This document shows, in pieces, positions 25,446 to 43,654 of a stretch of DNA of 64,000 nucleotides. Below the pieces are notes generated by a model. That model ran no database searches. It was not told the DNA's origin and saw only the letters and a list, made by a program, of their open reading frames with translations. Each line of letters begins with the position of its first letter. The stretch's first letter is position 1. The DNA lies in the IMG/VR virus record IMGVR_UViG_3300020061_000004, positions 1 through 64,000 of that record. One strand, given 5' to 3'. This stretch comes from a virus. The position numbers were made by a program, and so were the translations under genes.

Positions 25446-28400
25446 TTATTTTGTACCCGGTAGATTATAGTATTTAATCTGTTCATCTGGTGTCATTGTA
25501 TTTATGACCTGACGTATACCGGGAAGTGCTTTTAACATCTTGATGTATAACTTATTATCTCCTTGTTTAGCAAATCCTGAAGCTCTTGAATACTCTTCTG
25601 TAGGACTTGTAAGCTGCTGAGCCACTGCTGTATATTTTTCAATTAAATTGATAGATGCGGCAGGGTTTCTCACTACTCGGATAAAGTCAGCAGGAGAGAT
25701 ATACTGTGTAATATCCGCAGACATTCTGGTTAGCTGAAGTTTAGCTTCTGAAGTTATCCAACTCTTGTCATCATCTTCATTTGAGAATCCAGCAAGTAGC
25801 ATAGCAGCAAGAATTACACCAAACTCAAATACTGTTCTATTGATGGCATTCTTCTGATCTTCATTATATCCTTCTTTAGTCCATAATCTCTGAAGCATTC
25901 CGAATTTATAATCTTTAGCATCTGCTACAACTTTCTTCATAAATGTATTCCAATATCCCTCATTTGTAGTACCAAGTTCGTAATCTACATATTTTCTACC
26001 ATATCTACTCTTGAATGCTGTAAACATATACTTACGGAACATTAGTCCAAGCTTTCCATACCAGCGACGTTGTGCCACTGCTTTATCAAACTTATTGTAT
26101 ACACCATGAAGACTCTTATTGATGGCATGAAGACGATTTCTAAATAGGCTATCATCTTGAGCAGTCCAGTTGATATTAGGATTGTTTGTAATAGGGATTC
26201 TGTCTCCATTTGTATCTTTTTGATTCCAAGCATCAAATAGATGTATTTCTTTACCATCCTTCGTAGTTACCTTAGTGGCATGCATAAGAGATAACATACC
26301 TGAAAGCTGAATCTGATGTTCACCACCTTTCTGCATGAACATTAAGCTATTACTTCTAAAGAGTTTATTTAACTTTCCAGTAGTAACATCTTGGCCATAT
26401 TCATTCTTAAACTCACCTTGTGGAATATCATAATGTTCAGCCATTTCATGCATAATACTATCAGTCTGTCCAGCTATCTCACCAATTACTTCAGGCATTA
26501 ATTTCCAATACTGTCCATTACCCCAAAGCCAGTCTTTCTTACCCCAGAATCTTCCACCCATAGCTTCAAGGGCATTATTATAATTACCTACAATAACGTT
26601 ATTTACACCACCAGTGAAGTTAAGAGCCATATTGGTGACTGTTGTAAGAAATCCTGCATTATCAGCAATCTTATTAACAGAGAAGTCTCTTCCTAATATA
26701 TTTACAGTAGCTTTAAACTCAGCATCTCCAAATACAATATCATCAATAAACTCGTTAAGACGAGCATTAAGCATATCTTCACGAGCCATCTTTGGTACTA
26801 CTTTCTGAGTGATGGCATTCAATTTAGCAATACCCTTAGCATTAGTTTTAGCAATCTGTCTTCCTTTAATACCTAAGTTATAGTCACCATTAAGAACAGT
26901 CTTTAGAACAAGAATATTAGGTTCTACTTCAGACATTCCTTCAAAATGGTTAGCCATTTGAGAAAACTTCATTGTAGAGCTTAGTAAGTCTACTTTTAGA
27001 TCACTTTGATCCAGAAGTTTGGTATATTTAATAGGAATATGTTTTACTTCCGTTCCATCCTGACGCTGTACGGTACGATCACTGTCATAGTTTGCATATA
27101 AGCTACGTATAGGGGCTTTAGCAGCATCTAAAAGGTTCTTTTTAACAGTGTCTTTACTCCAGTTGATGTCAGAAAAGGCATTTTTACCCTTAGACTCTTG
27201 TGGAATAATACCATATTTTAAACCATATGTACCAAGCTTTTCATTAGCATCTTGATAGGAATTGAAAAGTGTTTTATAATAGTCACTAGTCATCATTCTA
27301 CCAAAATCAGGATTTTTATACTTCTCAGCAGGTAATACTAAATCTCCAGAGAATATGCGAAAAGTATCATTCTTATTATTATAGGTATAGATACGATCTT
27401 TATAATTACTTGCTTTTGATTGCCCATTACTATAAAATTCATTATCTATTACCTTAGTATTATTCAACAGCCATTTTTCAAACTGTCTCCTAGATAATTC
27501 TTTTCTCTTTTGATCTATAATATTAGCAGTATTAGGATTTATCCTAGTATTCTGAGAATAAAACTTTGATACAGCTCTTTGATATTCTTTATATGCTTTT
27601 CTATCAGACTGTTTAGGTTTCTCTCCAAGATTCTTATAGAAAGTTTTACGATCTTTATCAAACTGATCTTCTAAATATTCTGTATGAAATGCTAAACGAT
27701 TAACATATCCATAGACAGCCTGTCCATTTTCATCAACTCCCACTTGTTCATAATTCTCAGCCTGACGTAAAAACTGCATATTAAAATCTTCTTCTCCTTT
27801 CTTAGTAGAATAAAGAGGAGTACTCCTTACTTTATCATAAGCTTCTTGAAGTTCTTTTCCTATATGTAGGTCTTTTAGGTGATTATCATATACTACATCT
27901 TTAAGAGCCAAAGCTACAGCGGCTGATATAGCATCCTGAGAGTTGATGACAGCTCCAAGGAAATATCCTGAACTATCAATATCTCTTGTAGCCATTATCA
28001 TTTGGTCTCTAAATTGTTCTTTGGTAAGAACATCTTTAGTATTACCCTTAGCAATAAGAGCAGCATTGGTGGGTTCTATATAAGGATATAACCATTCTGT
28101 AACAAACGAAAGAGCAAAGTTCTTATAGTCAGCTACCATTATATCTTTCTTAGCAATAGCTTCTGCAAGCTTTGCCATTGTATCATCTTTATAGGTGGCT
28201 CCTTCTTTGATGTATAAGAGCTGAGCATCACTCATAGCATCAAATACATTAAGAAGCTGTTGTATTTCACCTAATATACCTAGATTATAGGCAATATCTT
28301 CTTTACTAAGCTTAGATGGGTCTTTAACAGCATCTCTAAGTGTATTAAAGCGATTATAAGCAGAGTCTACATAGTTAAGACTATTTGCAACGAAGTTATT

Positions 28401-29882
28401 AATAGATGTTATTTCATTTTCATTATTAATAATATCATTAAGAGCAGCAATATCTTCACGAAACTGATCTCCAGATTTTCTCTTTTTAATAGTGGCATTC
28501 AAAATAGCCACACGATCTTTAATCTTATCAAATACTTTTCCAAAAGTAATATCAGAATCAAGATTAGTCTTCTGATAGTTAGTGATAGATTCAGAATTAC
28601 GCATTAGAGCTTTAAGGTCCGCAGTCTGTAAATCATCCACCATCATATCAGCTATCTGATCAAGAGTAGTATTTAATGATAAATTCTGGAAATTTATCAT
28701 ATTCATTTTCTTGAATAGACTTTTAAGCCAGTTAATAAATCTATTAAATACAGATTGTTTCTGATCATATTTCTCTTCAGAGAGATGTCCAAGATATTGT
28801 ACCATAGCTTCCTCCATACGTTCAGAAGGAGAAAGGTCTTTATAAGCAGAATTATTATTAGTTTCTTGCCAAATTGCTAATGCACGTTGGTTAGTCTTCA
28901 TTTCTGCTACTAAAGCACTATAAAGTGCATAGTTTTCATTATTAAGAACACGAATGAAAGGATGTAAAAACTCATGGAATGGAGTACTTCCCACTATATT
29001 AGCTCTATTAATCATTACTTGCATCTGTCCATCAGACTTACGAAAAGTAAATTGTCCACGAAGATTACTACCCGGAATATCTGCTATATATGTAGCAATA
29101 TTAAATCTATTAGATAGTTTATTTAATAGAGTAGTTAAAGGATCATTGTCCCACTTTTCTGTTCTATACTGTTGTACAACCTTTCGTTTATCAAAGGCTT
29201 GATAGGAGATTTGGTGATCGGCTGTGGGGAAAAGCTGTTGAGCAATTTCTGTAACTCTTTCTCCGACAGCTTTAATTGTTGCATTCCTTTCTGATTCAGA
29301 ACGGTTAGCTTGTTGTGCGATTTCATATAAGGCTTGTGTAGGGTCTTTATCAAATGTTTCCTTATACTCTCCTTTAATAGAAGTACTAAGGTCTCTAACT
29401 TCATTAATAAGTTGTACAGATTTCTCTACAGCAGGATTCATTTCAAACTGATATTTCTGGTTGATTGAGAATGTAGAGTCTCCTCCACGTTCTACTAGTC
29501 CAGGATATAGTCTATCAATCTCTTCTATAAACTTATTATTTATAAATCTATTACCATCATTAGCAATTTTATAACTTGTTCCTTCAGTATTAATAATTCC
29601 AGGAGTATAAGAGGTTGAGAATAAGCGTGTTACATCTGAAAGTCCTTGGAACTTATAACGCTCCATAAGGTTCATTTGCTTACCATCCTGATTTATCACC
29701 TGCATAATAGGATTAACAAAAGGAACTACTGTACCATTTTCTAGTGTAGTAGTTTTACCATTTCCAAACCAATTTTTAAACTTAGGGCTATCTATTCCAA
29801 GAGAATACTCTTGAGCATTTCTTTCTCCTAATTGTCCTGTTAGTCTATCTGAATATTTAGTATTTTTTATATCGCACCACAT
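25446..29882 (-). CDS. Large ejection/polyvalent protein with zincin metallopeptidase domain
   Basis: FKNWFG motif, TPFHEFLH...EEAMV (HExxH at 28962-28976), helical C-terminal region. Adjacent to the RNAP genes. Confidence 0.75.
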   Translation of the reverse strand: MWCDIKNTKYSDRLTGQLGERNAQEYSLGIDSPKFKNWFGNGKTTTLENGTVVPFVNPIMQVINQDGKQMNLMERYKFQGLSDVTRLFSTSYTPGIINTEGTSYKIANDGNRFINNKFIEEIDRLYPGLVERGGDSTFSINQKYQFEMNPAVEKSVQLINEVRDLSTSIKGEYKETFDKDPTQALYEIAQQANRSESERNATIKAVGERVTEIAQQLFPTADHQISYQAFDKRKVVQQYRTEKWDNDPLTTLLNKLSNRFNIATYIADIPGSNLRGQFTFRKSDGQMQVMINRANIVGSTPFHEFLHPFIRVLNNENYALYSALVAEMKTNQRALAIWQETNNNSAYKDLSPSERMEEAMVQYLGHLSEEKYDQKQSVFNRFINWLKSLFKKMNMINFQNLSLNTTLDQIADMMVDDLQTADLKALMRNSESITNYQKTNLDSDITFGKVFDKIKDRVAILNATIKKRKSGDQFREDIAALNDIINNENEITSINNFVANSLNYVDSAYNRFNTLRDAVKDPSKLSKEDIAYNLGILGEIQQLLNVFDAMSDAQLLYIKEGATYKDDTMAKLAEAIAKKDIMVADYKNFALSFVTEWLYPYIEPTNAALIAKGNTKDVLTKEQFRDQMIMATRDIDSSGYFLGAVINSQDAISAAVALALKDVVYDNHLKDLHIGKELQEAYDKVRSTPLYSTKKGEEDFNMQFLRQAENYEQVGVDENGQAVYGYVNRLAFHTEYLEDQFDKDRKTFYKNLGEKPKQSDRKAYKEYQRAVSKFYSQNTRINPNTANIIDQKRKELSRRQFEKWLLNNTKVIDNEFYSNGQSKASNYKDRIYTYNNKNDTFRIFSGDLVLPAEKYKNPDFGRMMTSDYYKTLFNSYQDANEKLGTYGLKYGIIPQESKGKNAFSDINWSKDTVKKNLLDAAKAPIRSLYANYDSDRTVQRQDGTEVKHIPIKYTKLLDQSDLKVDLLSSTMKFSQMANHFEGMSEVEPNILVLKTVLNGDYNLGIKGRQIAKTNAKGIAKLNAITQKVVPKMAREDMLNARLNEFIDDIVFGDAEFKATVNILGRDFSVNKIADNAGFLTTVTNMALNFTGGVNNVIVGNYNNALEAMGGRFWGKKDWLWGNGQYWKLMPEVIGEIAGQTDSIMHEMAEHYDIPQGEFKNEYGQDVTTGKLNKLFRSNSLMFMQKGGEHQIQLSGMLSLMHATKVTTKDGKEIHLFDAWNQKDTNGDRIPITNNPNINWTAQDDSLFRNRLHAINKSLHGVYNKFDKAVAQRRWYGKLGLMFRKYMFTAFKSRYGRKYVDYELGTTNEGYWNTFMKKVVADAKDYKFGMLQRLWTKEGYNEDQKNAINRTVFEFGVILAAMLLAGFSNEDDDKSWITSEAKLQLTRMSADITQYISPADFIRVVRNPAASINLIEKYTAVAQQLTSPTEEYSRASGFAKQGDNKLYIKMLKALPGIRQVINTMTPDEQIKYYNLPGTK

Positions 29883-29883
29883 A

Positions 29884-31995
29884 TTAACACTGGTTAGTTT
29901 CGTCTTCTATTTGATCGTTTGTAAAGAAATCTAATGGCATATCAGATGCTTCATTATAAGCAAGCTGTTGTAGACCTCCAAATGTACCAGCAGATAACGG
30001 CATCACTGTAGTATCTGGCTGAGGAGTGATAGGAGTTTTTTCAGTAGCATTTGTATGTGTAGTGATTGGTGTAGGATTTGGTTTACCTTCCAATAATTCT
30101 CCACGAGCAGATTTCTGTAAATCTAGTAGATGTGCAGCAGCGGCTGTAAGTTTTCCTAATGCCTGTTCTCTCAATTGAGCTGTTGGTCTAGTTCCTAAGT
30201 CAGCTACACCTGTAGTTGTAGAAGCTCCTACAGCATCCACCATTACATATCGTGCAGATTGTCCTGTTGGTATAGAGTCTCCTTCTTTAGTCATTTCAGC
30301 ACCAGATATAATTTTTCCATCTCTGGAAATTGCATCTAGTCTGAATAATTTCTTAGTTTTATCACTTCTTTGTACTTGTATATACTTCTTAAACTGTACA
30401 TTTAGTTTATTAACTGTAACACCTTTTTTATTAGTTCCTGTTTCAGAAGATGTTACAAAACCAGCCTCTTCAAGACCATTCATTCTTTCTTTAAGATAGG
30501 TCTTTCCTGCTTCTGTTCCTGTAAGTTCTTTATACTTTTCATCAAACAGATTGATGTTCATAGTATTACCAGAATCTTCAAAATTAATAGCTTTAGCACT
30601 TTTACCCTTTGCATATGTAGGACGAACAAATGCTAAATTAAATTGATGTTGAACATCTGTGGAATAAATACTTTCAAATCTATTATAAAAGTTATTATAG
30701 TCATGTCCAAATACTTTCTCAAATAGAGTATTTCTAATACCTTCTATATCCTTAGCTTTAAATAAAGCATTAAAGTTATCTTTTTCAGCTTTAGAGAAAT
30801 AAGGAGTTAGTTCATTAGTACCATCATCTACTACAAAGTTATTTGCTATTTCTTTGACAAATCTGTTAAATTCACTTAATGAATTAGCAGCCATCAATTT
30901 ACTACCATAATCTGTTGCTTTAGACATCTCACTAAACATTACTGTAGGAAGCATCTTGATGAAACTCTTATTCTTAAACTGTAAGCCGTCTTTAACAATT
31001 AGATAATCAAATAAGGCTTTAGCATGAAACTTTGTTTTTGGATTATTATAAAGTTCACTGAATGAGTCCATAAGACTGGCTATCATGTCTGGCTCAATCT
31101 TTCCTCTAGTTCTACCTTCAATAGTATTTATAAGGTCTCTATTCAGAATATTCTTCTGTTGTTTCTTACCTATCTTTACACTAGTAGATATTGGAAGGAT
31201 GAAGGACAAGAATGTATTGGCTGGTGCAAGCTCTTTGGCTTGGCGCACAATATCCACAATATTTTCGAGTCCACCTTCTGTATCATAAATTAATGAGTTC
31301 CTAAGTGTAGATGTTTTATCTTGTTTAAAAGATATCCACTGTTTATAAGCTGCAATCTGTGAGAATGCAGATAGTTCATTCTTGATGTCATTAACCTCAT
31401 CAGGCCCAAGACTTTCCTTCAGATTAGCTACTACCTTTGCAACAGTATTTTTAAATGTAGGTGTACGCTCCATAAACATAGTCTTAGAAAGAGCTGATAC
31501 ATCCTGCATAATCTTTATATTATTAGCAGTGAGTTTATGATAGTATTGATCACTATTAGAAGCTTTATACTGATCATCTCCTGTAAGTAAATAACGTACA
31601 TCAAATGGAATATCATCAGTAAGTTGTGCTTTTCCTATACCAAGATCAGATAGGTTTCTAGCCACAGTATCCATATCCTCAAATCCCTTTCCAAGTCCTT
31701 TTGTTAAGGCTACAGCAGGGCCAATCTTATAGAAGAACTGAGCTTGCTCCTCAAGTTTAATAAACTGAGTTAATAGGTCTTTTTGGAATTTTCTTAGCTC
31801 AGAAGGGCTATAGTTATTCTCTCCAAAAGCTACTTGACGTAGTACATTTGCCAAAGATTCAGTAGTCATCTCTGGTGTACCTTTCTTATTAGTTCCTTCT
31901 AATAACTGCCTTTCTCTAACAAATTTAAGGAGCGCATCCTTGTTATCAAAGATGTGCTCCTTTCCTAATGAAGTTATGACGTATTTACAAGCCAT
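29884..31995 (-). CDS. Virion RNAP-associated protein, probably the split C-terminal part of the vRNAP
   Basis: Directly downstream of the DFDLD-containing ORF. ATG 31995 (MACK...) is preferred over the track start, which lies in the promoter motif. Confidence 0.65.
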   Translation of the reverse strand: MACKYVITSLGKEHIFDNKDALLKFVRERQLLEGTNKKGTPEMTTESLANVLRQVAFGENNYSPSELRKFQKDLLTQFIKLEEQAQFFYKIGPAVALTKGLGKGFEDMDTVARNLSDLGIGKAQLTDDIPFDVRYLLTGDDQYKASNSDQYYHKLTANNIKIMQDVSALSKTMFMERTPTFKNTVAKVVANLKESLGPDEVNDIKNELSAFSQIAAYKQWISFKQDKTSTLRNSLIYDTEGGLENIVDIVRQAKELAPANTFLSFILPISTSVKIGKKQQKNILNRDLINTIEGRTRGKIEPDMIASLMDSFSELYNNPKTKFHAKALFDYLIVKDGLQFKNKSFIKMLPTVMFSEMSKATDYGSKLMAANSLSEFNRFVKEIANNFVVDDGTNELTPYFSKAEKDNFNALFKAKDIEGIRNTLFEKVFGHDYNNFYNRFESIYSTDVQHQFNLAFVRPTYAKGKSAKAINFEDSGNTMNINLFDEKYKELTGTEAGKTYLKERMNGLEEAGFVTSSETGTNKKGVTVNKLNVQFKKYIQVQRSDKTKKLFRLDAISRDGKIISGAEMTKEGDSIPTGQSARYVMVDAVGASTTTGVADLGTRPTAQLREQALGKLTAAAAHLLDLQKSARGELLEGKPNPTPITTHTNATEKTPITPQPDTTVMPLSAGTFGGLQQLAYNEASDMPLDFFTNDQIEDETNQC

Positions 31996-31996
31996 A

Positions 31997-32037
31997 TACA
32001 AATATACAATTATAATTACAATTAATTAAACGTGTAA
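31997..32037 (-). promoter_or_regulatory. Putative late promoter
   Basis: TTACACGTTT-N21-TATATTTGTA. Confidence 0.65.
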
Positions 32038-32047
32038 CCATAATTGG

Positions 32048-35000: not shown

Positions 35001-38000
35001 TTAATATATTTCTCATCCTGCTCAGATATAACAGCAGTAGATGAACGAGCTATTCCTGCCATTCTGTCTAGGACAGTTTTTGGAAGAAGAGCTGTAAAAC
35101 TTTCAGTAAACTGTAATCCACGATATCCCTTTAGGATAACTGATCTATCTTCATTTCCTTGACTATCTGTTCCAAAATTACCAGTATGATAGTTTTCTAC
35201 AACATTAGATTTAATAGTACCTATTTCAGTATTTACTCTGTTTATACGATTAAATTCTCTCTTAAACTCATTAAATATTATATCTTTAACCTTCTGTGTA
35301 ACTCCTGATGCTTTATACATATCAGAAAGTATAGGCAGATTAACAGTGTCACCAGTACTAGAAGCTTCAAGTACACGAATCAGATGTGGTGTTGTAACAA
35401 CAGATGTTTTACCATTTCTCTGAGTTTTTGCATATGAAGAATAGATATTCATAAAGTTGATCAAGAACTCACGTGGAGAATAGTGACCATATGTAATACC
35501 ATCTTTCTGATCTCTAAACTCAGCAGTGACTACTTTACCAGCTTTATTTGTTTCTACTGCTTTAAGACCATCTATACGATTTACTAATAGATTATCTGCA
35601 ATAGCTTCAAAATCTGGAGATTTCATTAAGAAGTTATCAGTGAGCCATTCAGAATCATAGGCATCCCTATAAGCTGTTGTAGCTTCACGATATCCCTGTT
35701 CTCTTAATTGCTTACGGAAAGCAGCATCTCTAAGTTGATAGGAGAAGTTAATATTAAATGTACCATCTTGGTGGCCATACACTATTTTATCTTCAGCATT
35801 AGTAAATGATGATTCACCTACTGTTTCATCAAATAAAGAATTACCCTTAGCGATGTTTAGAAGACGACCAATCATAGCTGTGTCTATCTCTTCATTTACT
35901 TTAGTAACTTGCTGAGTATTATCATCTATTTGTTCTACTTCCTTTAAGTCTTTGAAATAAGGGTTTGAACCACCAGTTAATAGTCTAGTGAGTTGTTCTA
36001 AATCTTCTCCATTAAGAGTAGTTTCATCAGCAGTTTTCATGATCTGAACATACTCATAATCTTGTTTATTTATGAATTTGTTCTTAGGATCATCAAACTG
36101 AAGTTCTACACCCTCTTTCTTATATTTTTCATTAAGAGCATCAAATAATCTTGCATTTTTAGAAAGTATAGAATATTTTATATACTCTGAAGATAAGCGA
36201 ATACCTACCTGTGAAAGAGTATTCTGAACTCTTGTAACATCATCGGAAAGTTTAGTTGCATCATATTTAGTAACTATTCTTTCATCAAATATACTTCTTA
36301 TATCATTTACATTGTCACGAATAGCTTTTTGAGCATCATCTGAATATTTTGCATAATTATCTCCATATTCATTAGACCACTTATCAAACTGTGTATTTTC
36401 TACATTTTTACGATTCGCAGGGTATGATTTTGTAATACTTTTCTTAACATCCACTTCATTGAAAAGATAGTCTACACGAAACTTATTAAATCCTTTTCTA
36501 ACCATTTCTACAAGGGCAGGATTAATAGTGGCTTCAAGTCTATTCTCTTCAAAAAGAGCTTGAACATTAAGTCCAGTTTCTTTAATAAACTTCTCTACAA
36601 AATGTCTACTCTGTTCATTACCATTAGAAAACATAATCATCTTCTGGAAGAACTTAATAGGATCAGTAATATTAGCTACAGAACGTAGTAGACCATAATA
36701 TACTGCCCTAGAATCAACAGTATTTACTGTAGGAACACCTTCAATAAGCTGTGAGTTTCCAAATTCATCTACTTTATCATAAGAAGTAAATCCTATATAC
36801 TGGCGTAGTAATCCTGGAAGGCTAGAAAGACCTCCTATGTTTTCAGAAGTATTATTATAACCAGTACTAGGTTGTCCTTTATCCTGTTCACTATCTTCCT
36901 TATCTTCTTCTCTAAACTGCTCAATATATTTAATAGTATTAACATATTCTATAGCTCCCTTTTTGATTATATCACGACTTTCTGGGTTGCTGTATACATA
37001 AGCCTGATCAGATGATAAAATACGATTCATTTCAGCCTCAGACTTTCCCGCATATAGAGGATTGTTAATACTATATAAACCTTGTAAGTCATCAAGTATA
37101 GTATTTAATAGAGTATCATCAGATATATTTCTATACTTGTCTAACATCCTATATGTATTATAATAAGATGCTACACTCTGAACAGTCTGAGTAGATGTTT
37201 TAGGGTCCATATTACGTTTAATAGTAATCTGGCCTTTACCCACTTGCATAACTCCCGGACGAGCAGGTATTAATGATAGAGCTATTTCTGGATTACCATA
37301 ATCTTCTTCTGGCATCTCAGTTGTAAACCTATTAGCAGCAATATCATGATATTTGTAAACACCTGTGTCAATATCTCTAAAGAGCATATCAAGGTCTTTA
37401 CCACTTTTAGAGAACCATTTGAAGAAACGACGAATAGCATCAAATAGTTTATCAAATATACCAGCAGATTCTTTCTTAGCTTTCCAACCTTGAAACTTAT
37501 CAGCCATATATTCTTCATACAGTCTATCAAGAGCTTGACTATTAGATAGTGTATTATAAAGTCCTAAGTCTCTTCTTTCCTTTAAATATTGATTAATAGA
37601 TTTACCTTCTGATTTCAGTTGGTTATAAAGTCCCTTCTGTGCCTCAGATAGATATCTATCTATTTCAGCATCACTTAATAGCATACGAAATACACCATGA
37701 AATGCTTCATGATATTCTGTACCTGCTGGAGCATCACTATTAAGATATATAACTCCATTAGAGAATGCTCCCCATACTTGTCCCTTTATAGCTATTCTAT
37801 CAAGAACTTCTGATATATCTGCCATTTTAATAAAAGAAGGAAGATTATCAGAGATATACTGACGAGCCTTTTCTACATCTAATATAGTATTCAGTTCTTT
37901 AACACCGTTCTCACCAAGTTTGAAATCAAAATCAATATCTTGATTAGCACCTTTTGGAATATCAAGATTAAGACCCATACTCTTAGCTAATTCTCTTGCA

Positions 38001-41000
38001 GACATTCCTGAAAGATTATCTAATATTTCTCCAGTTTCAGCATCTCTAAATACTGTTCCTTGTGGTGTATTACTAAACTGTACTCCTACACTTCCTAGAG
38101 CTTCATCAGCACTGGTGAATACTTTATCTTCATTAGATTCCTGATTGAAATTAGAAGTAGCCTTAGCATCTCTTATTTCTTGAGGAGACACCATTCCTAA
38201 TGGATTTCCTTGGTCATCTGTATCTACTTGTGTAAGACCACCAAAGATTCCCTTACTAGGAAGAGTAATAGGAGAAGGAGCTATCATTTCCTGCACTGGT
38301 ATACTAGGAGCAGGCATTTGAAATACTCCACTAGTAAGAGGTACTACAGAAGATATCTCAGGGTTATATACAATATTAATACCCTTTTGCTTTTCTACTG
38401 AGGTGATGTTTCCTTTGCCGTCATAAGCAATCTGAAATGGAAGAATTCCAAGTCTCTTTGGTTTTACACCAAATTCATTCTGGAAAAGGTTAGAATATGC
38501 ACTAAGTTGATTAGTATGATTCTGTCTCTTAGTCATCTTACCATTGTAAGAATCATCATACTTACCAAAATCCTTAGCTGTCTTTATATCATAAATACTA
38601 TAATTACCATCCTTATCTACCGATAGAATATCTACTTCACCAGCTATTTTACTTACTGGATCAAATAATACTATATTATTACTAATAAACTTCTCACCTC
38701 TATCTTCAATAGTTTTCTTAATTTCAGTGAGTGCTTTTATGATAGAAGTATGAGCTTCATCAGAAATACCAGCAGGTTTAGTAGCAGTTTTACCAGAAAA
38801 GAAATCTCTTACAATTCCATCTACTGTACTACCAGCAACTCTTGCATTTTCGTATAGAGAAGAGTCACCATCAAAATCATTAGGAATAACATTTGTTACT
38901 CTTCTATAGTTCTCTCCTCTAATTATATAAAACTGCTGATCTGCTGTTCTTCCTTGTACTTCTGTCTGACTAGCTATAACAGCAGCCATAATATCTTGAG
39001 AAGTCTGAAGATTTGCACCACTACTTACAGCATTCTGATTAGCAGGATTATTTCTTTCAGTACCTCCAGCTGCCTTATAGGCACTAGATATCTCTTTATA
39101 GTTAGGAGTGATACGAAGAGTACCATTCTTAAATACATTAGTAGTTGTTGCACTACTTAAAGCATTACCCGCAGCATCAGCATTAGTTTCAGAATCTTTT
39201 GCAATATTTTCACGGAACTGACTAGCAGAGAAATTAACTTTAAGTGCAGCAAATGCTGTAGCTTTATCAATTTGTTCCTGAGTCATTCCTTTCTTAACAG
39301 TACCTACTTTAACTGCTTCCTTATTGAAGAGATCAATCATCTCTCCTAAGTTCTTAATAGTAGCTACTCTTGTAGGAGCAATATATAAGGTATATCCTGC
39401 TTTAGTGTCCTTATCGTATATTTCCATACGAATTGCACCAATAGGGCTTACAGAAAGATTAAAGTTCTTTTTACCATCTGGATCAGATATAAACAGTTGA
39501 TTATCAATACCTTCATTAAAAGTATCATTATATGCTTTTGCTTCAGCATTAGGATATTTATAATAAACAACTTGATCACCAATTAATAACTGTCCATCTG
39601 CTAATTCCTTAGTAGATTCTGCAAAGTTAGTTTCTCCTGAAAGTTGTGCTCTATCTTTAAGAGAGTTAAACAATGCACTTTCAGCTTGTTCTCCTAACTG
39701 TCCAGGAGTAAGAGCTACATAATGTAAAGCTCCATCTGGTGTTTGAGTAACCCCAACATATCTTGTTCCAAGAGCATGTATTCTAGTAACGTCTCCAGCA
39801 ATTTTAGCTTTTAATTCTTTAGAATCAGCATTGTTATCATAAAAAGCAGGACTATAGATAAACTCCATAATATCAGACTTCACATATCCACCAATATCAT
39901 TATTATATACACGAGGTATAGAGATAATTACTTGTGACTGAACATCCTGTCCATTAGAACCTTTAAATACATGAGTAGTATTCTCTAATTCACTATATAA
40001 AGGTCTTTCTCCACCCGGTGGGATCAGATCAAGTTCCCCATATGTAAGTTTTACATCTACAAGTTTTTCAAGCTGTTCTTCTGATAGAGTAATAGCTTGA
40101 TTATTATTGTTCTTAAACTGTATAGCAAAATAGTTCTTCAGAGCAACCATAGCATTATACTGTTCCAAATCAGCAGCATATTGTGCAGCAGGTCTGGAAG
40201 TAAAATTAGCGTATTGTTGAGCAGTAAGTTTATCTAATGTAACTAATTGATTATTAACATTAAATAATAGTCTATCAGGAGTAGCAAGTTTTGCCACTTC
40301 ATCTCCAGTATGTAAGATAGACATATCTATAGGAGAAAGAGAAGAATATACTCCAGGATAACCTTTTAATTGTGTATATGTATTATTAGCTTTTTGATCA
40401 TTATAGGCTTGTTGACGTTCAGGAGAAAGAGGCTGTATTCTGATAGTCATATCAGCTTTAAACTCAGCTGATGTTTCATACTGTATAGCTTCTTGGAAAG
40501 GAACTTTTAAATCAGCAGGAACAAGAGCTTTATTAAAATAATCTTCTGTACGTAAAGCTTCTCTACCAGCTCCAGCACCAGCAGGTTGAGGCTGAGGAGG
40601 ACTTGGTGGTACAATAGGTTTAGAAGCCTTCTGGGAAGCAGCATTTGCAGCAGTGTTAAGAGTTACAGCCTGTGCTCTAATAGCAGCTACATTACTATTA
40701 TGTATATAGTAGTTCTTACCATCTGAGCTTTTAACTTGTGTATACTCTGAAAGGTTGACATTAGGATTTGTCATCTTAAGATCATCAACTGTAGATAGTT
40801 CATCTACATTATCAAGATCATCAGAAGCAGCTTTATCCTTTCCATCAATAACATTTAATAGAGCATTATAATATGTTCTTTTCTTCTCATCATCTAATAC
40901 TTGTGTAGACTCAGTTAATTCTCCTTGCCCTTGTTGTTGTGATGCAGCAAGACCAGTTCCTGTAGATAAACCATTAGCTTGAGCAGCCTGCTGAGCAACT

Positions 41001-43654
41001 ACATTTACCTGTGGATTCTGAGGTTGTACAGTATTAGGAGTGAGTGTAATAGGCTGTACCTGTACTTTACTTCTAATATCCGCTATATTATCAAATAATT
41101 TCTTAAATCCACCTTTAGTTGTAAGACGAGCATAACTATCAGCAGCTATTTTATTTCTGGAGTTTAGATATGCAATATCCTTACTCCTACCCATAACATC
41201 TTTTATGATAGTAGGATCAAACTTCTTTGCTCCAAATGGGGCATAAGCTTGATTATAATCTTGAGCATATTTATTAAATACGTTAAAGAGTAAATCTTGA
41301 TATGATTTTTGAGAAGCTTTTTCATCCTTCTGATCTAAAGAATCATCAATAAGAGAAACACGTTCTAATAGGTTATCTTTCTCTTTCTGAGACTCTTTAT
41401 CACCAAGCTTAATACCTTCATTTAAAATAGAAATACGACTTAAATAGTCTTGTTTAAGACTATGCATACCCACATCACTACCAAGTTTCTCAACTTCATC
41501 AGCATTTACAGCTGTATGAGCAGCTATTTCAGAACGCATCTGAGAGATACGATTATTAGAATCTCTTGCCACACTCATAGAGTAGGTGAGTTGATTCTTA
41601 GTATCTTGATATATCAGATATTTTTCATTCTCTTTATCCTGTTCGGCTTTCTGCTCTGCATTCTTGTAATTACCAGTACCTTTATAGTTAAAGGGATTTA
41701 CAAATGTTCTATCTACTCTATCGTGTATATCTTTAATAGAAGCTGCTGTACTCTTTAATGTACTAACATAATCTGCTACTAATTTTTTATTAGCATCAGT
41801 TTGAGGAATATTAAATTCTTTTTGAAATTCATCCTGACTAAGCTTATTTAGTTCATCTAATTGATCAAGACGAGTTTCATACTTATTCTGCTCAATACCA
41901 GACACAACGAAGTTAACCATCTGCTCATGCTGATAGTTCTTGAATAAGAATGGATTATTAGCCTTAGCAGCAGCCAGCATATCATCTTGGATAGCATCAG
42001 CAGCTACTTGTTCTCCATATTTATTCTCAAATACTCCTGTAAGAGTTTTGGCATTAAGTCCTTTAAGAACATCTTGTATTTGTTGCTTACGATCAGGAGC
42101 TTCTATACCTCTTATTTTATGGTATATATGTTCTCCAGCACTATATAAAGCACCACCAAGAACACCATCAATAATATTCTCCCATCCTTCCTGAGTACCT
42201 AAAGTCTTAGACATACCAAGACCAAAACTCTTCATGAAGTTATTAGTCTGATCTATAGATGGTTGATGATACTTACGTTTGTAATAATCGTCTACACCAT
42301 TCTGTATAGCAAACTGCGATCCTTCTTCAAAACCTTCTGATAAACTTTCTGTAAGTAGTTCAACAGGTTTACTACTAGTAATAGCTTTTCCTATTCTAGC
42401 AAATGTATTAGTTGGCTGTACAGCTTCAAATATATCTCTACTACCTTCTTTAAGAGCAACTCTTATACCTGTCTTAGCTTCTGCTTCTACGGCATCTTTA
42501 ATGACATTAAAAGGCTTTAGTAAGCTACCCCACTGAATAGAGTTAGTGGCAGCTAATAGAGCTGTATTTAAGAGAAAACGTGTATTACCAGCAGTTTTTG
42601 CTGTATCATATATTTTCTGTTGAGCTTCATAATCTGGCATTTTGCCATTATTATTGAAGTATTCTTGAGTAAGGTCTTTATTTAATTGATTAAATCCATC
42701 AAGTCCTTCAAATGCAGCTTCACCAACACCTGATGTAATCATGTTGGCACCCCATAGTCCTTTTCTCACTGCATAGTTAAACTTATCAATACCTTTTAAT
42801 CCTTTGATGATATCATCAGCAGATTTTATAGAACCTTTTAATCCAGCAAGTCCTTCTTCACCAAAATTAATAAGTTTACCAAGTCTATATACTGCTTTGT
42901 TGATCTGTAAGGCAGCAAGAGGCACTTCTCCCACTCCACCTGTAACAGCACCAACAACAGCATCTTCTACTAAGCTTCCACCAATAGCACCAATAGTGAA
43001 ACCTGTCTGTTGTAATATATTACCCCATCCATTACCAGCATTACCATAGAATGGAACAAGATTTAAGAATGGATGTTGTCTTTCCCAGTTTGTTTCATAG
43101 TTAGGCATAGCATTCTCTGCCCAGTTCTGCATATCAGTAGCCCAAGTATTAGTGGGGTTATTCCACACCTTATCAATATTTCCCTCTTTTGCAGCAGATA
43201 TCATATTAGGAATATCCATCAATGAATTGGCAAAACTTCCTACTGTTGTTACAGCAAGTTTACCAAAACGGTTTCCCATCTGCTTAACCCAACTTTGATT
43301 CTCTCCATACCAGTTTGATATATTTGGGTCATCAGGAGTAAATCCTCCATATGCATCTGTCAAATAGGGATCAGCAACAGACTTATTAGTATATTTAAAA
43401 TCAGTTAAGAAGTTAGTTGGTGTATTTTTTATAGCACCTAACATTGCAGCATATGCAGGATTAACCTTTGAATTTCCTGCTAAAGTATTTGGAGCACCAT
43501 CATTGAATAGAAGGTTTGGTGCTGTTGGTGCATCAACAACATTGGTACGATCTATTACACGTCCTAAGTCCTTGTTTATATCATAATTAGAAGCCGGAAT
43601 AGCAGTCTGCTGTCCCGGCTGAATATCTGTAGATATGGGAGTAGTTCCAGCCAT
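32048..43654 (-). CDS. Giant virion-packaged DNA-dependent RNA polymerase polyprotein (crAss-type two-barrel RNAP)
   Basis: RIPSQ...GADFDLDK catalytic loop (33167-33181), HEAFH zincin domain, PD-(D/E)xK domain, and hydrophobic Gly/Ala N-terminal segments. Confidence 0.88.
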   Translation of the reverse strand: MAGTTPISTDIQPGQQTAIPASNYDINKDLGRVIDRTNVVDAPTAPNLLFNDGAPNTLAGNSKVNPAYAAMLGAIKNTPTNFLTDFKYTNKSVADPYLTDAYGGFTPDDPNISNWYGENQSWVKQMGNRFGKLAVTTVGSFANSLMDIPNMISAAKEGNIDKVWNNPTNTWATDMQNWAENAMPNYETNWERQHPFLNLVPFYGNAGNGWGNILQQTGFTIGAIGGSLVEDAVVGAVTGGVGEVPLAALQINKAVYRLGKLINFGEEGLAGLKGSIKSADDIIKGLKGIDKFNYAVRKGLWGANMITSGVGEAAFEGLDGFNQLNKDLTQEYFNNNGKMPDYEAQQKIYDTAKTAGNTRFLLNTALLAATNSIQWGSLLKPFNVIKDAVEAEAKTGIRVALKEGSRDIFEAVQPTNTFARIGKAITSSKPVELLTESLSEGFEEGSQFAIQNGVDDYYKRKYHQPSIDQTNNFMKSFGLGMSKTLGTQEGWENIIDGVLGGALYSAGEHIYHKIRGIEAPDRKQQIQDVLKGLNAKTLTGVFENKYGEQVAADAIQDDMLAAAKANNPFLFKNYQHEQMVNFVVSGIEQNKYETRLDQLDELNKLSQDEFQKEFNIPQTDANKKLVADYVSTLKSTAASIKDIHDRVDRTFVNPFNYKGTGNYKNAEQKAEQDKENEKYLIYQDTKNQLTYSMSVARDSNNRISQMRSEIAAHTAVNADEVEKLGSDVGMHSLKQDYLSRISILNEGIKLGDKESQKEKDNLLERVSLIDDSLDQKDEKASQKSYQDLLFNVFNKYAQDYNQAYAPFGAKKFDPTIIKDVMGRSKDIAYLNSRNKIAADSYARLTTKGGFKKLFDNIADIRSKVQVQPITLTPNTVQPQNPQVNVVAQQAAQANGLSTGTGLAASQQQGQGELTESTQVLDDEKKRTYYNALLNVIDGKDKAASDDLDNVDELSTVDDLKMTNPNVNLSEYTQVKSSDGKNYYIHNSNVAAIRAQAVTLNTAANAASQKASKPIVPPSPPQPQPAGAGAGREALRTEDYFNKALVPADLKVPFQEAIQYETSAEFKADMTIRIQPLSPERQQAYNDQKANNTYTQLKGYPGVYSSLSPIDMSILHTGDEVAKLATPDRLLFNVNNQLVTLDKLTAQQYANFTSRPAAQYAADLEQYNAMVALKNYFAIQFKNNNNQAITLSEEQLEKLVDVKLTYGELDLIPPGGERPLYSELENTTHVFKGSNGQDVQSQVIISIPRVYNNDIGGYVKSDIMEFIYSPAFYDNNADSKELKAKIAGDVTRIHALGTRYVGVTQTPDGALHYVALTPGQLGEQAESALFNSLKDRAQLSGETNFAESTKELADGQLLIGDQVVYYKYPNAEAKAYNDTFNEGIDNQLFISDPDGKKNFNLSVSPIGAIRMEIYDKDTKAGYTLYIAPTRVATIKNLGEMIDLFNKEAVKVGTVKKGMTQEQIDKATAFAALKVNFSASQFRENIAKDSETNADAAGNALSSATTTNVFKNGTLRITPNYKEISSAYKAAGGTERNNPANQNAVSSGANLQTSQDIMAAVIASQTEVQGRTADQQFYIIRGENYRRVTNVIPNDFDGDSSLYENARVAGSTVDGIVRDFFSGKTATKPAGISDEAHTSIIKALTEIKKTIEDRGEKFISNNIVLFDPVSKIAGEVDILSVDKDGNYSIYDIKTAKDFGKYDDSYNGKMTKRQNHTNQLSAYSNLFQNEFGVKPKRLGILPFQIAYDGKGNITSVEKQKGINIVYNPEISSVVPLTSGVFQMPAPSIPVQEMIAPSPITLPSKGIFGGLTQVDTDDQGNPLGMVSPQEIRDAKATSNFNQESNEDKVFTSADEALGSVGVQFSNTPQGTVFRDAETGEILDNLSGMSARELAKSMGLNLDIPKGANQDIDFDFKLGENGVKELNTILDVEKARQYISDNLPSFIKMADISEVLDRIAIKGQVWGAFSNGVIYLNSDAPAGTEYHEAFHGVFRMLLSDAEIDRYLSEAQKGLYNQLKSEGKSINQYLKERRDLGLYNTLSNSQALDRLYEEYMADKFQGWKAKKESAGIFDKLFDAIRRFFKWFSKSGKDLDMLFRDIDTGVYKYHDIAANRFTTEMPEEDYGNPEIALSLIPARPGVMQVGKGQITIKRNMDPKTSTQTVQSVASYYNTYRMLDKYRNISDDTLLNTILDDLQGLYSINNPLYAGKSEAEMNRILSSDQAYVYSNPESRDIIKKGAIEYVNTIKYIEQFREEDKEDSEQDKGQPSTGYNNTSENIGGLSSLPGLLRQYIGFTSYDKVDEFGNSQLIEGVPTVNTVDSRAVYYGLLRSVANITDPIKFFQKMIMFSNGNEQSRHFVEKFIKETGLNVQALFEENRLEATINPALVEMVRKGFNKFRVDYLFNEVDVKKSITKSYPANRKNVENTQFDKWSNEYGDNYAKYSDDAQKAIRDNVNDIRSIFDERIVTKYDATKLSDDVTRVQNTLSQVGIRLSSEYIKYSILSKNARLFDALNEKYKKEGVELQFDDPKNKFINKQDYEYVQIMKTADETTLNGEDLEQLTRLLTGGSNPYFKDLKEVEQIDDNTQQVTKVNEEIDTAMIGRLLNIAKGNSLFDETVGESSFTNAEDKIVYGHQDGTFNINFSYQLRDAAFRKQLREQGYREATTAYRDAYDSEWLTDNFLMKSPDFEAIADNLLVNRIDGLKAVETNKAGKVVTAEFRDQKDGITYGHYSPREFLINFMNIYSSYAKTQRNGKTSVVTTPHLIRVLEASSTGDTVNLPILSDMYKASGVTQKVKDIIFNEFKREFNRINRVNTEIGTIKSNVVENYHTGNFGTDSQGNEDRSVILKGYRGLQFTESFTALLPKTVLDRMAGIARSSTAVISEQDEKYIKDQLAVSLNKMVDDTLNLLVTEGIINKDNKGKYSNVFLHSDYFNGNESINLSKDKFTDNVGHVIMNNFINTLAYNQILHGDPALSLKDAVDAVKRAKGDNAAIKSMRTDLIAPELGITQPFTHSNIGIFKEPISADGTKIADAQMYTTVTGLRYTLWGLAQLTPRVARVLDALEAGENIHSIKAANGKEFDAIFDKDNGLLRWDEMTNSMKLIFKDGKSYFKMSVVVLQPNLTSMKDENGNWKAIPGWETLHNLRTRMEDQSMHFAAPESASKMMTMDVGRAKDFSDLVGHPYDNTYFGLQTANPSNKLEITTPTQLLQLIDGEQDDESEVSISGTTYTIGQVRDIYQTAIANKVSNNFEAARNEIYNIQDFNNDVEKSIAEGKVTPQLANFQKRAISTLEASGGDAQLLDFFSLDENGIPKYNLNMSATKFKFQQLYLAYFSKGVLSQKNPGYTVALFSGIDTKTIRRAKRIENGVVVEWDHIRRDHYVNNRQNVQAETILHSIDQVTEEGQLYLDELRHNVTEYDSDGNDTGRRYSEMMLPPHFKEFLDIADTDQIPESIAMGLGVRIPSQDKNSFMALRIIDFLPANLGSTAMFSKDLVRLSGADFDLDKEYITRYDFYTEYRDGKPQFRKYGDARSSEAQWGEYKDYMKKNNKTLKGAISEIMGQPMNAGLLQDINLSPVEKENVKNSIVEAALKQVGLPSTQEEFEEASKTKELNNGILNNKILDSYISLLTNKGIREIADESSSMEALSEIQGRGELTLRDKNDKVVGKVFGKKSSFPGDSMGGQYQAFKNNSAGKDNIGIDVNASLIYSILNKAGIKVRETEKIQPFRFDGMTFDSFGGNNELNLDSESKQFDGRRTNGVYSALTSAATDEAKEQLNALYNLSVDALKIVNYMVGLKVPLTTAVYMVNQPGISTYLNIKSVKQNTLQTPQEERLFKKHFEEEAVARLEKSILDYHEMSDDDLYANLQQSGIFELQCD

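What the first reader, a model, noticed from the sequence alone, without database searches (positions are those of the whole stretch)
25446..43654. Head-to-tail cysteines suggest three ejected RNAP/ejection proteins form one linked chain
Seen: reading the three consecutive proteins (3868, 703 and 1478 aa, about 6050 aa) by eye, I find only four Cys. They are the penultimate residue of A (...ELQCD*), residue 3 of B (MACK...), the last residue of B (...TNQC*) and residue 3 of C (MWCD...). The free ends (N-terminus of A, C-terminus of C) have none. This is the pattern expected of a linear A-B-C chain joined at each gene junction, and it contrasts with the Cys-rich external tail proteins. Known: crAss-like vRNAP and cargo proteins are packaged and ejected through the tail, and are fused or split differently between genomes. 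Inference: terminal disulfides or shared metal sites couple separately translated pieces so they are packaged and threaded in order, and reduction in the host cytoplasm could release them. I do not know of a description of this mechanism.
Basis: partly seen in the sequence, partly recalled or inferred. Interest (0 to 1): 0.88.

Follow-up and report, generated by a model that had tools for sequence, protein, structure and literature searches.

The report
Terminal cysteines chain phage RNA-polymerase cargo
Three giant proteins of this crAss-related soil phage, which together carry the RNA polymerase it packs into its particle, have no cysteine except one at each end that faces the next protein; relatives keep such a pair at every gene break and lack it where the genes are fused, which points to untested end-to-end disulfide links.

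Summary
A (3868 aa), B (703 aa) and C (1478 aa) hold 4 Cys in 6049 residues, against about 89 expected. They are A3867, B3, B703 and C3.

The pattern is conserved and follows the protein breaks, not the genes.
- 39 of 40 B homologues keep a Cys within the last 5 residues, and 37 of 40 keep Cys3.
- 19 of 19 split A homologues end in their only Cys.
- 0 of 86 A+B fusions have a Cys pair at the former junction.
- 40 of 41 dereplicated C-type junctions carry the pair.
- crAss001, phi14:2, phi4:1 and Lbo-JY46 obey the rule at their own, different break points.

A holds the DFDxD polymerase motif. B folds like the C-terminal part of phi14:2 gp66. The end of A and the start of B are predicted to dock.

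The most likely reading is head-to-tail disulfides in the virion. One such bond was seen by cryo-EM in the unrelated cyanophage A4 (PMC12002296). For crAss-like phages I found no description, and nothing here shows the bond directly. Ordered threading and release by reduction remain inference.

This scan has noted the same pattern before on at least 94 other genomes.

The parts
32048..43654 (-). Protein A, 3868 aa. It is the first piece of the virion RNA-polymerase cargo module, and its only Cys is residue 3867.
   Evidence: The N-terminal part and residues 1586-2119 match crAss001 gp47, and 3402-3623 match phi14:2 g066 and crAss001 gp50.
32054..32056 (-). Codon of Cys3867 of A, the penultimate residue.
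   Evidence: All 19 split-type A homologues have their only Cys in the last 2 residues.
33167..33181 (-). DFDLD, residues 3492-3496 of A: the DFDxD catalytic motif of the two-barrel virion RNA polymerase.
   Evidence: It aligns with DFDID 1361-1365 of phi14:2 g066. D3492, F3493, D3494 and D3496 are invariant in 18 homologues. The motif is named in the abstract of preprint 10.1101/2020.03.07.982082.
37697..37711 (-). HEAFH (HExxH motif), residues 1982-1986 of A.
   Evidence: H1982, E1983 and H1986 are invariant in alignment A3. Function not tested.
38234..38245 (-). FGGL in a Pro-rich internal linker of A (residues 1804-1807). The same motif sits in the C-terminal tail of B. Relatives such as L094 are split some 70 residues further on.
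29884..31995 (-). Protein B, 703 aa. It is the middle piece and the C-terminal part of the polymerase fold, with Cys only at residues 3 and 703.
   Evidence: AlphaFold2 model: pLDDT 78.5, pTM 0.70. Best PDB match is 6VR4 chain A: Foldseek E 7e-6; VIA-align Z 14.4, rmsd 7.7 A, 378 aligned, model 42-608 on chain 1701-2112.
31987..31989 (-). Codon of Cys3 of B. It lies just before a predicted beta-hairpin (strands 5-9 and 12-16).
   Evidence: M1, C3 and Y5 are invariant in 28 aligned homologues.
29887..29889 (-). Codon of Cys703 of B, the last residue, at the end of a roughly 70-residue low-confidence tail (634-703).
   Evidence: C703 is invariant in alignment A1.
25446..29882 (-). Protein C, 1478 aa. 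It is the last piece and a homologue of phi14:2 g065 and crAss001 gp49 (RNA-polymerase-associated protein). Its only Cys is residue 3.
   Evidence: gp49, E 6e-43; g065, E 4e-32.
29874..29876 (-). Codon of Cys3 of C.
   Evidence: Of 43 dereplicated C homologues with a complete start, 42 have a Cys at residues 3-6.
28962..28976 (-). HEFLH (HExxH motif), residues 303-307 of C.
   Evidence: The preprint says that gp65 orthologues hold a zincin-like protease domain (passage).
43657..46173 (-). Upstream 838-aa cargo-block protein with no Cys. Its junction with A (2 bases apart) carries no Cys on either side, so it serves as an internal negative control.
   Evidence: Its homologues in Lbo-JY46 (845 aa) and L094 (848 aa) also have none.

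Best explanation
A, B and C are the pieces of the virion-packaged RNA-polymerase module of a crAss-related podophage. In other lineages this module is one giant polyprotein, or is cut at other places. At each break, the upstream piece ends in a Cys (last 1-9 residues) and the downstream piece starts with one (residues 3-7). In the assembled particle the two most likely form an intermolecular disulfide. The bond stands in for the missing peptide bond and restores a chain A-S-S-B-S-S-C of about 6050 residues. Every other Cys has been purged, probably so that no wrong cross-link forms in proteins that must partly unfold to leave through the tail.

Shown here: the Cys pattern, its conservation, and its strict link to protein breaks. 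Supported by a model: docking of the A terminus with the B terminus. Shown only in phage A4: that such a pair is a disulfide. Inferred: that the tether serves 1:1:1 packaging and ejection as one thread, and that host thiols may open it afterwards.
For: (1) 4 Cys in 6049 aa, all at inner termini. About 89 are expected, P about 5e-33.
(2) B family: 37 of 40 have Cys3, 39 of 40 have a Cys in the last 5 residues, and 38 of 40 have exactly two Cys.
(3) A family, 118 proteins of 2499-5631 aa: 110 have a Cys in the last 12 residues, 79 have that Cys alone, and 11 have exactly one at each end.
(4) Fusion test: 19 of 19 split A proteins end in their only Cys. Of 86 A+B fusions, 0 have a Cys pair at the former junction and 79 have no Cys within 100 residues of it. 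This includes P0059 and P0060 of the window's own clade.
(5) C-type junctions in 80 IMG/VR loci, 46 clusters at 95% identity: 42 of 43 complete starts have a Cys at residues 3-6, 41 of 41 upstream ORFs end in a Cys, and the pair is present in 40 of 41. The exception is explained by a GTG start that gives (M)ASC.
(6) Other break points each carry their own pair and no other. These are L004-type, L094, Lbo-JY46, crAss001 gp47/gp50/gp49 with gp47 on the opposite strand, phi14:2 g067/g066/g065 and phi4:1 gp038/gp037/gp035.
(7) Controls: the 838|A junction has no Cys. A gene break in L052 without Cys is a group I intron (RF00028, 54.4 bits).
(8) Complex prediction of A 3519-3868 with B 1-450: ipSAE 0.77 (runs 0.80, 0.77, 0.77), best of 3 controls 0.00. 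The mark was reached by 58 of 80 solved complexes and 2 of 110 mismatched pairs. Runs share at least 73% of contacts, and partner pLDDT is at least 68. The interface includes A 3859-3868 and B 1-9.
(9) Precedent: in cyanopodophage A4, cryo-EM shows a disulfide between Cys1715 of gp27 and Cys5 of gp26 (PMC12002296, passages). In KF356198 these are the only Cys of a 1717-aa and a 1114-aa protein.
(10) crAss001 virions do hold disulfides in portal-vertex and tail proteins (PMC10172136, passages).
(11) No His or second Cys is conserved next to either terminal Cys in 105 N-terminal and 190 C-terminal peptides.
Against: No disulfide has been observed between these proteins in any crAss-like phage. 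Assembly takes place in a reducing cytoplasm. No thioredoxin or glutaredoxin gene was found in the 123,280-base record, and the Erv1 search was uninformative because its control did not ring. The virion disulfides in the papers were seen in particles purified in air.

The rule has exceptions. In 7 of 118 A-family proteins the last Cys lies 12-58 residues from the end, and one protein has no Cys. Seven of 86 fusions keep a single Cys roughly 10-70 residues before the end of the A-tail alignment, that is, near the former junction. gp50-type proteins of crAss001 relatives keep 1-3 internal Cys.

The docking pass concerns two halves of a fold that is one chain in relatives, and a fused homologue is solved (6VR4). 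It may therefore reflect likeness rather than binding. It also gives no S-S distance.

The main text of Bayfield 2023 describes reduced and non-reduced virion samples but reports no gp47-gp50-gp49 link. Its extended tables and supplements were not seen.
Confidence: 0.68

Rival explanations
1. The two terminal Cys of a junction share a metal ion (for example Zn or Cu) rather than a disulfide. The tether would then be a metal bridge that opens on chelation or a redox change.
For: The paired presence and absence across breaks fits any two-Cys bridge. Acidic residues are common before the C-terminal Cys and could add ligands.
Against: There is one Cys per terminus. No conserved His or second Cys lies within 10 residues in 105 N-terminal and 190 C-terminal peptides. 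The only solved case of this layout, A4, is modelled as a disulfide.
Confidence: 0.07
2. The pieces are held together by non-covalent docking of split-specific terminal peptides. The Cys are only close neighbours that oxidise by accident in air, or they act as a redox sensor without a tethering role.
For: The predicted A-B interface is large, with 269-289 contacts. The last 8-17 residues of A and the first 36-42 of B exist only in split forms, so there is a docking module besides the Cys.
Against: An accidental neighbour would not be the one residue kept against a purge that removed about 85 other Cys. It would also not be invariant down to about 25% identity, nor re-invented at each new break point.
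Confidence: 0.12
3. Each terminal Cys acts on its own. It might anchor its protein to another virion part (portal, capsid, DNA end), or be a site of modification or processing. The apparent pairing would be a by-product.
For: T7 gp14 has a lone Cys at residue 2 and no partner among gp15 and gp16. A lone terminal Cys can therefore exist.
Against: The free ends of the chain never carry a Cys (79 of 118 A proteins have none at the N-terminus; the C-terminus of C has none). Both Cys vanish together in fusions. Middle pieces have both, first pieces only the C-terminal one, and last pieces only the N-terminal one.
Confidence: 0.05
4. The pieces are ligated into one true polypeptide (trans-splicing or thioester chemistry), with the Cys as nucleophiles.
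For: Cys at both sides of a break recalls intein and native-ligation chemistry. This is recalled knowledge, not tested here.
Against: There are no intein-sized flanking segments. Pfam gives no hit at all for A, B or C. The N-terminal Cys sits at residues 3-7 and not at residue 1. crAss001 gp47, gp49 and gp50 were detected as separate proteins of 262.5, 154.5 and 276.9 kDa (PMC10172136, passage).
Confidence: 0.02
5. Chance, or a general low-Cys composition of this phage.
For: The whole cargo block is Cys-poor: 8 Cys in 9607 aa.
Against: P is about 5e-33 for the lack and about 1.5e-12 for the placement. The pattern is conserved in hundreds of relatives.
Confidence: 0.01

Closest known systems
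Cyanopodophage A4 (Anabaena phage A-4L) ejection proteins gp27 and gp26: disulfide Cys1715-Cys5 in the pre-ejectosome (PNAS 2025, PMC12002296)
   Same: These are two consecutive giant internal proteins. The upstream one has its only Cys 3 residues from the C-terminus, and the downstream one has its only Cys at residue 5. Cryo-EM shows the two bonded, with the C-terminal helix of gp27 seated in a cleft of gp26.
   Different: No sequence relationship was detected: hhalign of the C family against gp26 gives probability 0.5%, and only this pair was tested. A4 has one junction and no RNA polymerase. The paper, in the passages I read, does not note the purge of other Cys or a link to gene splits. 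Here there are two junctions, and a rule that follows break points across lineages.
RNA-polymerase cargo block of cultured crassviruses: phi14:2 g067-g066-g065 (g066 = PDB 6VR4) and crAss001 gp47-gp50-gp49
   Same: The proteins are homologous. The Cys rule is the same. g067 has its only Cys as the last residue, g066 has Cys 3 and 2179 only, and g065 has Cys 3 only. gp47 has Cys 2339 of 2341, gp50 has Cys 5 and 2404 of 2412, and gp49 has Cys 5. All are virion proteins by MS (record notes; PMC10172136).
   Different: The break points differ. The window fuses the g067-like part with the first roughly 1700 residues' worth of the polymerase in A. It splits the polymerase itself, and B corresponds to gp66 1701-2112. 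crAss001 gp50 has one extra internal Cys. The papers I read do not mention these Cys.
Ejection proteins of N4 (gp50 vRNAP, gp51, gp52) and T7 (gp14, gp15, gp16)
   Same: These are proteins packed in the head and expelled through a short tail. They are likewise nearly free of Cys: N4 has 0 in 4294 aa, and T7 has 1 in 2261 aa.
   Different: There are no terminal Cys pairs. The N4 polymerase is one chain of 3500 aa of a different polymerase family (per PMC13434306, passage).

Membership tests
crAss-like virion RNA-polymerase cargo module (phi14:2 g067/g066/g065 type) | A giant virion protein carries the DFDxD catalytic motif of two-barrel RNA polymerases. | tested here: met
   A 3492-3496 (DFDLD) aligns with g066 1361-1365 (DFDID). 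It is invariant in 18 homologues. The motif is defined in the abstract of 10.1101/2020.03.07.982082.
crAss-like virion RNA-polymerase cargo module (phi14:2 g067/g066/g065 type) | The fold is that of gp66 (PDB 6VR4). | tested here: met
   B model against 6vr4_A: Foldseek E 7e-6, probability 1.00, TMq 0.30. VIA-align Z 14.4, rmsd 7.7 A, 378 aligned, next best Z 4.7. Only B was folded; A was not.
crAss-like virion RNA-polymerase cargo module (phi14:2 g067/g066/g065 type) | The downstream partner is homologous to gp65/gp49 and has a zincin-like HExxH. | tested here: met
   C against g065, E 4e-32. C against gp49, E 6e-43. HEFLH lies at C 303-307. Protease activity was not tested.
crAss-like virion RNA-polymerase cargo module (phi14:2 g067/g066/g065 type) | The proteins are present in virions and are delivered into the host. 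| not testable with these tools
   Known by MS for phi14:2 and crAss001. For this uncultured phage it is inferred from homology and from the position behind the muzzle-like gene.
Order Crassvirales | Close kinship of the structural genes with classified crassviruses. | tested here: inconclusive
   The best cultured relatives of the 1711-aa muzzle-like protein are Lbo-JY46 (41%), csAssE-Sib (32%) and Cellulophaga phi4:1 (31%). None of these is filed under Crassvirales in its record. The polymerase module does match crassviruses. No capsid, portal or terminase phylogeny was made.
Disulfide-tethered ejection proteins (phage A4 gp27-gp26 type) | A single Cys at the C-terminal end of the upstream protein faces a single Cys at the N-terminal end of the next. 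| tested here: met
Disulfide-tethered ejection proteins (phage A4 gp27-gp26 type) | The disulfide is observed in the particle. | not testable with these tools
   This needs non-reducing gels, MS or cryo-EM of virions. Only a docking model is available.
Disulfide-tethered ejection proteins (phage A4 gp27-gp26 type) | Sequence homology to gp27/gp26. | tested here: not met
   hhalign of the C-family profile against gp26: probability 0.5%, E 0.11. gp27 against A or B was not tested.
Split inteins / protein trans-splicing | Intein halves flank the break, with Cys as the first intein residue and as the first C-extein residue. | tested here: not met
   No Pfam family matches A, B or C. The Cys lie 1-2 residues from the C-terminus and at residue 3, leaving no room for intein halves.
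Metal-bridged hooks (Rad50 zinc-hook type; recalled) | A CxxC, or Cys plus His, is contributed by each partner. | tested here: not met
   There is one Cys per terminus, and no conserved His or second Cys nearby.

The most novel reading that the evidence does not exclude
In crAss-like phages and their relatives, a disulfide replaces the peptide bond at every break of an ancestral giant polyprotein. The whole RNA-polymerase module, about 6000 residues, would then be packed and injected as one covalent thread. Ejected proteins of unrelated podophages are also almost free of Cys (N4: 0 in 4294 aa; T7: 1 in 2261 aa). Together these would point to a general redox design rule for proteins that must travel through a phage tail: no cysteine, except where two chains have to be tied end to end.
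Probability: 0.35. Interest if true: 0.85.

Novelty: new variant of a known kind. Interest (0 to 1): 0.76.

Why it matters
How crassviruses, the most abundant phages of the human gut, store and deliver about 700 kDa of polymerase cargo is unresolved. [quoted passage not shown]

A covalent end-to-end tether would explain three things. It would explain how separately translated pieces are packed in fixed proportion and leave in a fixed order. It would explain why the module can be fused or split so freely in evolution. It would explain why it has lost all other cysteines.

It gives a cheap, decisive test on phages that are already in culture: reducing against non-reducing gels, and disulfide-mapping MS. 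It also gives a sequence rule for telling true protein breaks from introns, frameshifts and wrong start calls in metagenomic crAss-like genomes.

Tried and rejected
Single-sequence searches gave little. There was no DNA or protein match of the A-B junction stretch (window 29000-33000) or of B in the 'phages' collection. B alone found no viral contig. A, B and C had no Pfam family. A had only a weak PHROG 'exonuclease' hit at 1602-1738. PDB sequence searches found nothing with A, C or the profiles A1, A2 and A3, so the link to 6VR4 needed BLAST on phi14:2 and a fold search.

Rejected explanations:
- Translational coupling or a junction DNA motif. crAss001 gp47 lies on the strand opposite to gp50. 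Unrelated ORFs sit between pieces in phi4:1, csAssE-Sib, L050 and L094. The tight 838|A junction has no Cys.
- Inteins (and the positions of the Cys).
- Homology with A4 gp26.
- A phage-encoded thiol oxidoreductase as the source of the bonds. No thioredoxin or glutaredoxin was found. The Erv1 search rang nowhere, not even in the controls, so it says nothing.

A search for short proteins matching A 1000-1835 was meant to find first pieces that end near A 1810-1880. It gave only two gp47-like proteins, which end later; both have a single Cys 4 residues from the end. The L094 locus answered that question instead.

Literature. Seven searches found no paper that describes terminal Cys or disulfide links between the crAss polymerase-module proteins. 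I read passages and one methods section of PMC10172136, and passages of PMC12002296, of 10.1101/2020.03.07.982082 and of PMC13434306. Extended tables and supplements were closed, and those of PMC10172136 (reduced against non-reduced MS) could bear on the claim. The final Nature version of Drobysheva et al. was not read.
Full report
**What is there.** The window is the first 64 kb of a 123,280-base virus record. On the minus strand lie three consecutive ORFs:
- A, 32048..43654, 3868 aa
- B, 29884..31995 from its ATG, 703 aa
- C, 25446..29882, 1478 aa

There are four Cys in 6049 residues: A3867 (penultimate), B3, B703 (last) and C3. The N-terminus of A and the C-terminus of C have none.

Thirty-five other ORFs of the window hold 1.48% Cys. 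About 89 would therefore be expected in A+B+C (Poisson P about 5e-33). The placement alone has a chance of about 1e-12. TGT/TGC triplets abound in the other two frames. The block of eight ORFs at 22405-51507 holds only 8 Cys in 9607 residues. The muzzle-like protein has 23 and a fibre protein 13.

**What the proteins are.** Pfam gives nothing, but tblastn links A to the 'putative RNA-polymerase subunit' genes of crAss001 and its relatives. Local BLAST maps the pieces as follows:
- A 111-584 and 1586-2119 onto crAss001 gp47
- A 3402-3623 onto crAss001 gp50 and phi14:2 g066
- B 137-388 onto gp50
- C onto gp49 and phi14:2 g065

DFDLD at A 3492-3496 aligns with DFDID at g066 1361-1365. This is the DFDxD catalytic motif named in the abstract of the phi14:2 preprint.

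An AlphaFold2 model of B (pLDDT 78.5, pTM 0.70) finds one clear PDB match, 6VR4, the phi14:2 virion polymerase. Foldseek gives E 7e-6. VIA-align gives Z 14.4, rmsd 7.7 A, 378 residues aligned, B 42-608 on chain residues 1701-2112, with the next best match at Z 4.7.

So A carries a g067/gp47-like part plus the catalytic part of the polymerase. B is the C-terminal part of the polymerase fold. C is the polymerase-associated protein with an HExxH motif. The A|B break lies inside the enzyme.

The homologues in phi14:2 and crAss001 are virion proteins by mass spectrometry (record notes; PMC10172136). Packaging and ejection of A, B and C are inferred from that. The phage itself is nearest to Leptolyngbya phage Lbo-JY46, csAssE-Sib and Cellulophaga phi4:1 by its muzzle-like protein. 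It is therefore crAss-related rather than a proven member of Crassvirales.

**Conservation.**
- B family, 40 homologues at 41-100% identity: 38 have exactly two Cys, 37 have Cys3, 34 end in Cys, and 39 have a Cys in the last 5 residues. The misfits are wrong or cut starts and one altered tail. M1, C3, Y5 and C703 are invariant in the alignment.
- A family, 118 proteins found with the last 600 residues of A (2499-5631 aa): 110 have a Cys in the last 12 residues. Of these, 79 have that Cys and no other, and 11 have exactly one at each end.
- C family, 80 IMG/VR loci in 46 clusters at 95% identity: 42 of 43 complete proteins have a Cys at residues 3-6, and in 39 it is the only one. All 41 upstream ORFs end in a Cys within 10 residues. 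The pair is present in 40 of 41. The one exception, L048, has a GTG that overlaps the upstream stop and gives (M)ASC.

**The pairs follow the breaks.**
- Of the 118 A-family proteins, 86 also contain the B-like region in the same chain. None has a Cys pair at the former junction, and 79 have no Cys within 100 residues of it. Seven have a single Cys roughly 10-70 residues before the end of the A-tail alignment, that is, near the former junction.
- All 19 split-type A proteins end in their only Cys.
- P0059 and P0060, at 52-53% identity and so in the window's own clade, are fused. They lack both Cys, and also the last 8-17 residues of A and the first 36-42 of B. Those same first 41 residues of B have no counterpart in 6VR4. 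In the model they form a beta-hairpin and a helix. Split forms therefore carry short terminal docking peptides that fused forms do not.

Other lineages are cut elsewhere, and each has its pair only at its own break:

| Lineage | Break pattern |
|---|---|
| L004-type | A+B+start of C, then rest of C |
| L094 | A 1 to about 1880, then rest of A+B, then C |
| Lbo-JY46 | 1552 aa ending in Cys, then 2748 aa with Cys4 |
| crAss001 | gp47 (Cys 2339 of 2341), gp50 (Cys 5 and 2404 of 2412, plus one internal), gp49 (Cys 5) |
| phi14:2 | g067 (last residue), g066 (3 and 2179), g065 (3) |
| phi4:1 | gp038 (last residue), gp037 (4 and 516 of 517), gp035 (3) |
| Five loci | mini-piece of about 295 aa with Cys3 and a terminal Cys |

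**Controls.**
- gp47 lies on the strand opposite to gp50 and gp49. Unrelated ORFs sit between pieces in several genomes. The rule therefore belongs to the proteins, not to gene junctions.
- The tight junction between the 838-aa protein and A has no Cys on either side.
- A gene break without Cys in L052 is a group I intron (RF00028, 54.4 bits against a threshold of 50). No protein ends arise there.

**How it most likely works.** A residue that survives a purge of about 85 others must act as a pair with its partner, given three facts. It sits at the facing ends of consecutive pieces. It is absent from the two free ends. It appears and disappears together with its partner.

A disulfide is the simplest such link, and one is documented. 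In cyanopodophage A4, cryo-EM shows Cys1715 of gp27 bonded to Cys5 of gp26 (PMC12002296). In the A-4L record these are the only Cys of a 1717-aa and a 1114-aa protein. No homology with the C family was detectable, so this is the same solution in a different protein set. crAss001 particles also contain structural disulfides (PMC10172136).

The complex test supports docking of the end of A with the start of B.
- ipSAE was 0.77 (three runs: 0.80, 0.77, 0.77), and the best of 3 controls scored 0.00.
- The mark was reached by 58 of 80 solved complexes and 2 of 110 mismatched pairs.
- At least 73% of contacts were shared between runs, and partner pLDDT was at least 68.
- A 3859-3868 and B 1-9 lie in the interface.

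These are halves of a fold that is one chain in relatives, and a fused homologue is solved. The pass may therefore reflect that likeness. It gives no S-S distance.

The second Cys of B sits at the end of a roughly 70-residue low-confidence tail, so it looks like a leash to C. No His or second Cys is conserved beside either terminal Cys, which speaks against a metal site.

**What remains inference.** Three points are untested: that the bond forms in nature, that the chain threads through the tail in order, and that host thiols release the pieces.
- Assembly is cytoplasmic, and I found no thiol oxidoreductase gene. The Erv1 search was uninformative.
- For A-B, release is doubtful, because the break lies inside the polymerase and the predicted interface is large.
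- The near-terminal placement (N-terminal Cys at residue 3 in 61 of 105 distinct peptides; the C-terminal Cys is the last residue in 69 of 190) fits a link that mimics chain continuity better than a mere interface staple.
- Seven of 118 A-family proteins place the last Cys 12-58 residues from the end, and one has none.

**Known or new.** Seven literature searches found no account of these Cys in crAss-like phages. I also read passages of the crAss001 atlas, the phi14:2 preprint and a 2026 N4 paper. The preprint holds 'disulfide' and 'cystein' zero times. It suggests that fused polyproteins are cleaved.

The A4 bond is the only precedent I found. I file the finding as a new variant of a known kind: a conserved, break-tracking, multi-junction form of disulfide-tethered ejection proteins, in the polymerase module of crAss-related phages.

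This scan has reported the same pattern before on at least 94 other genomes. The leads to the A4 paper and to phi14:2 came from those notes, and I checked both myself. This window adds a lineage in which the polymerase itself is split. It also adds the observation that split forms carry extra terminal docking peptides.

Noticed in passing
window 22405-51507 (minus strand): The whole block of eight ORFs from the 289-aa protein to the 829-aa tailspike-like protein is Cys-poor, with 8 Cys in 9607 residues. The 838-aa and 289-aa proteins have none. The 1466-aa homologue of crAss001 cargo protein gp45 has two, at 226 and 234.
   Followed up: partly
L097 (N4, NC_008720.1) and L096 (T7, NC_001604.1): Ejected proteins of unrelated podophages are almost free of cysteine. 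N4 gp50, gp51 and gp52 have 0 in 4294 residues. T7 gp14, gp15 and gp16 have 1 in 2261, at residue 2 of gp14. This may be a general property of proteins that leave through the tail. I made no literature check.
   Followed up: partly
P0013, P0022, P0038 (homologues of B); window B residues about 620-703: Homologues of B carry extra domains between the conserved fold and the terminal Cys: NADAR (PF08719), circularly permuted YpsA SLOG (PF12694) or DUF7831 (PF25176). The flexible tail of B thus seems to be a slot for accessory, possibly host-directed, domains.
   Followed up: partly
window 38234-38245 (A 1804-1807) and B 672-675: The same Pro-rich linker with an FGGL motif followed by an acidic stretch occurs inside A and in the tail of B before its terminal Cys. 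By the alignment offsets, relatives with an N-terminal Cys start about at this point of A. L094 is split some 70 residues later. It looks like a module boundary that is fused here and split elsewhere.
   Followed up: partly
L052 5950-6193: A group I intron (RF00028, 54.4 bits) interrupts the gp50-like gene in several human-gut crAss contigs (L052, L060, L067; L074 is interrupted in a similar way).
   Followed up: yes
L020, L021, L027, L028, L032: A mini-piece of 289-298 aa with Cys3 and a Cys as its last residue lies between the large upstream protein and the C-like protein, which gives a chain with one more link.
   Followed up: no
L050 about 3900-4390; L094 18417-19259; L092 gp036; L093 WOZ57302: Small Cys-containing ORFs of unknown role are inserted between two pieces of the chain in some genomes.
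   Followed up: no
window 63549-63869 and 15788-16045 (minus strand): Two small ORFs near the tail genes also have Cys at their extreme ends. The 106-aa ORF has Cys 2, 4 and 106 (last). The 85-aa ORF has Cys 3, 4, 7 and 80. Their meaning is unknown.
   Followed up: no
window 31995-32001: the ORF listing starts B at a TTG two codons upstream (705 aa). The ATG at 31995 is the likely start, because 37 of 40 homologues begin M-x-C.
   Followed up: yes
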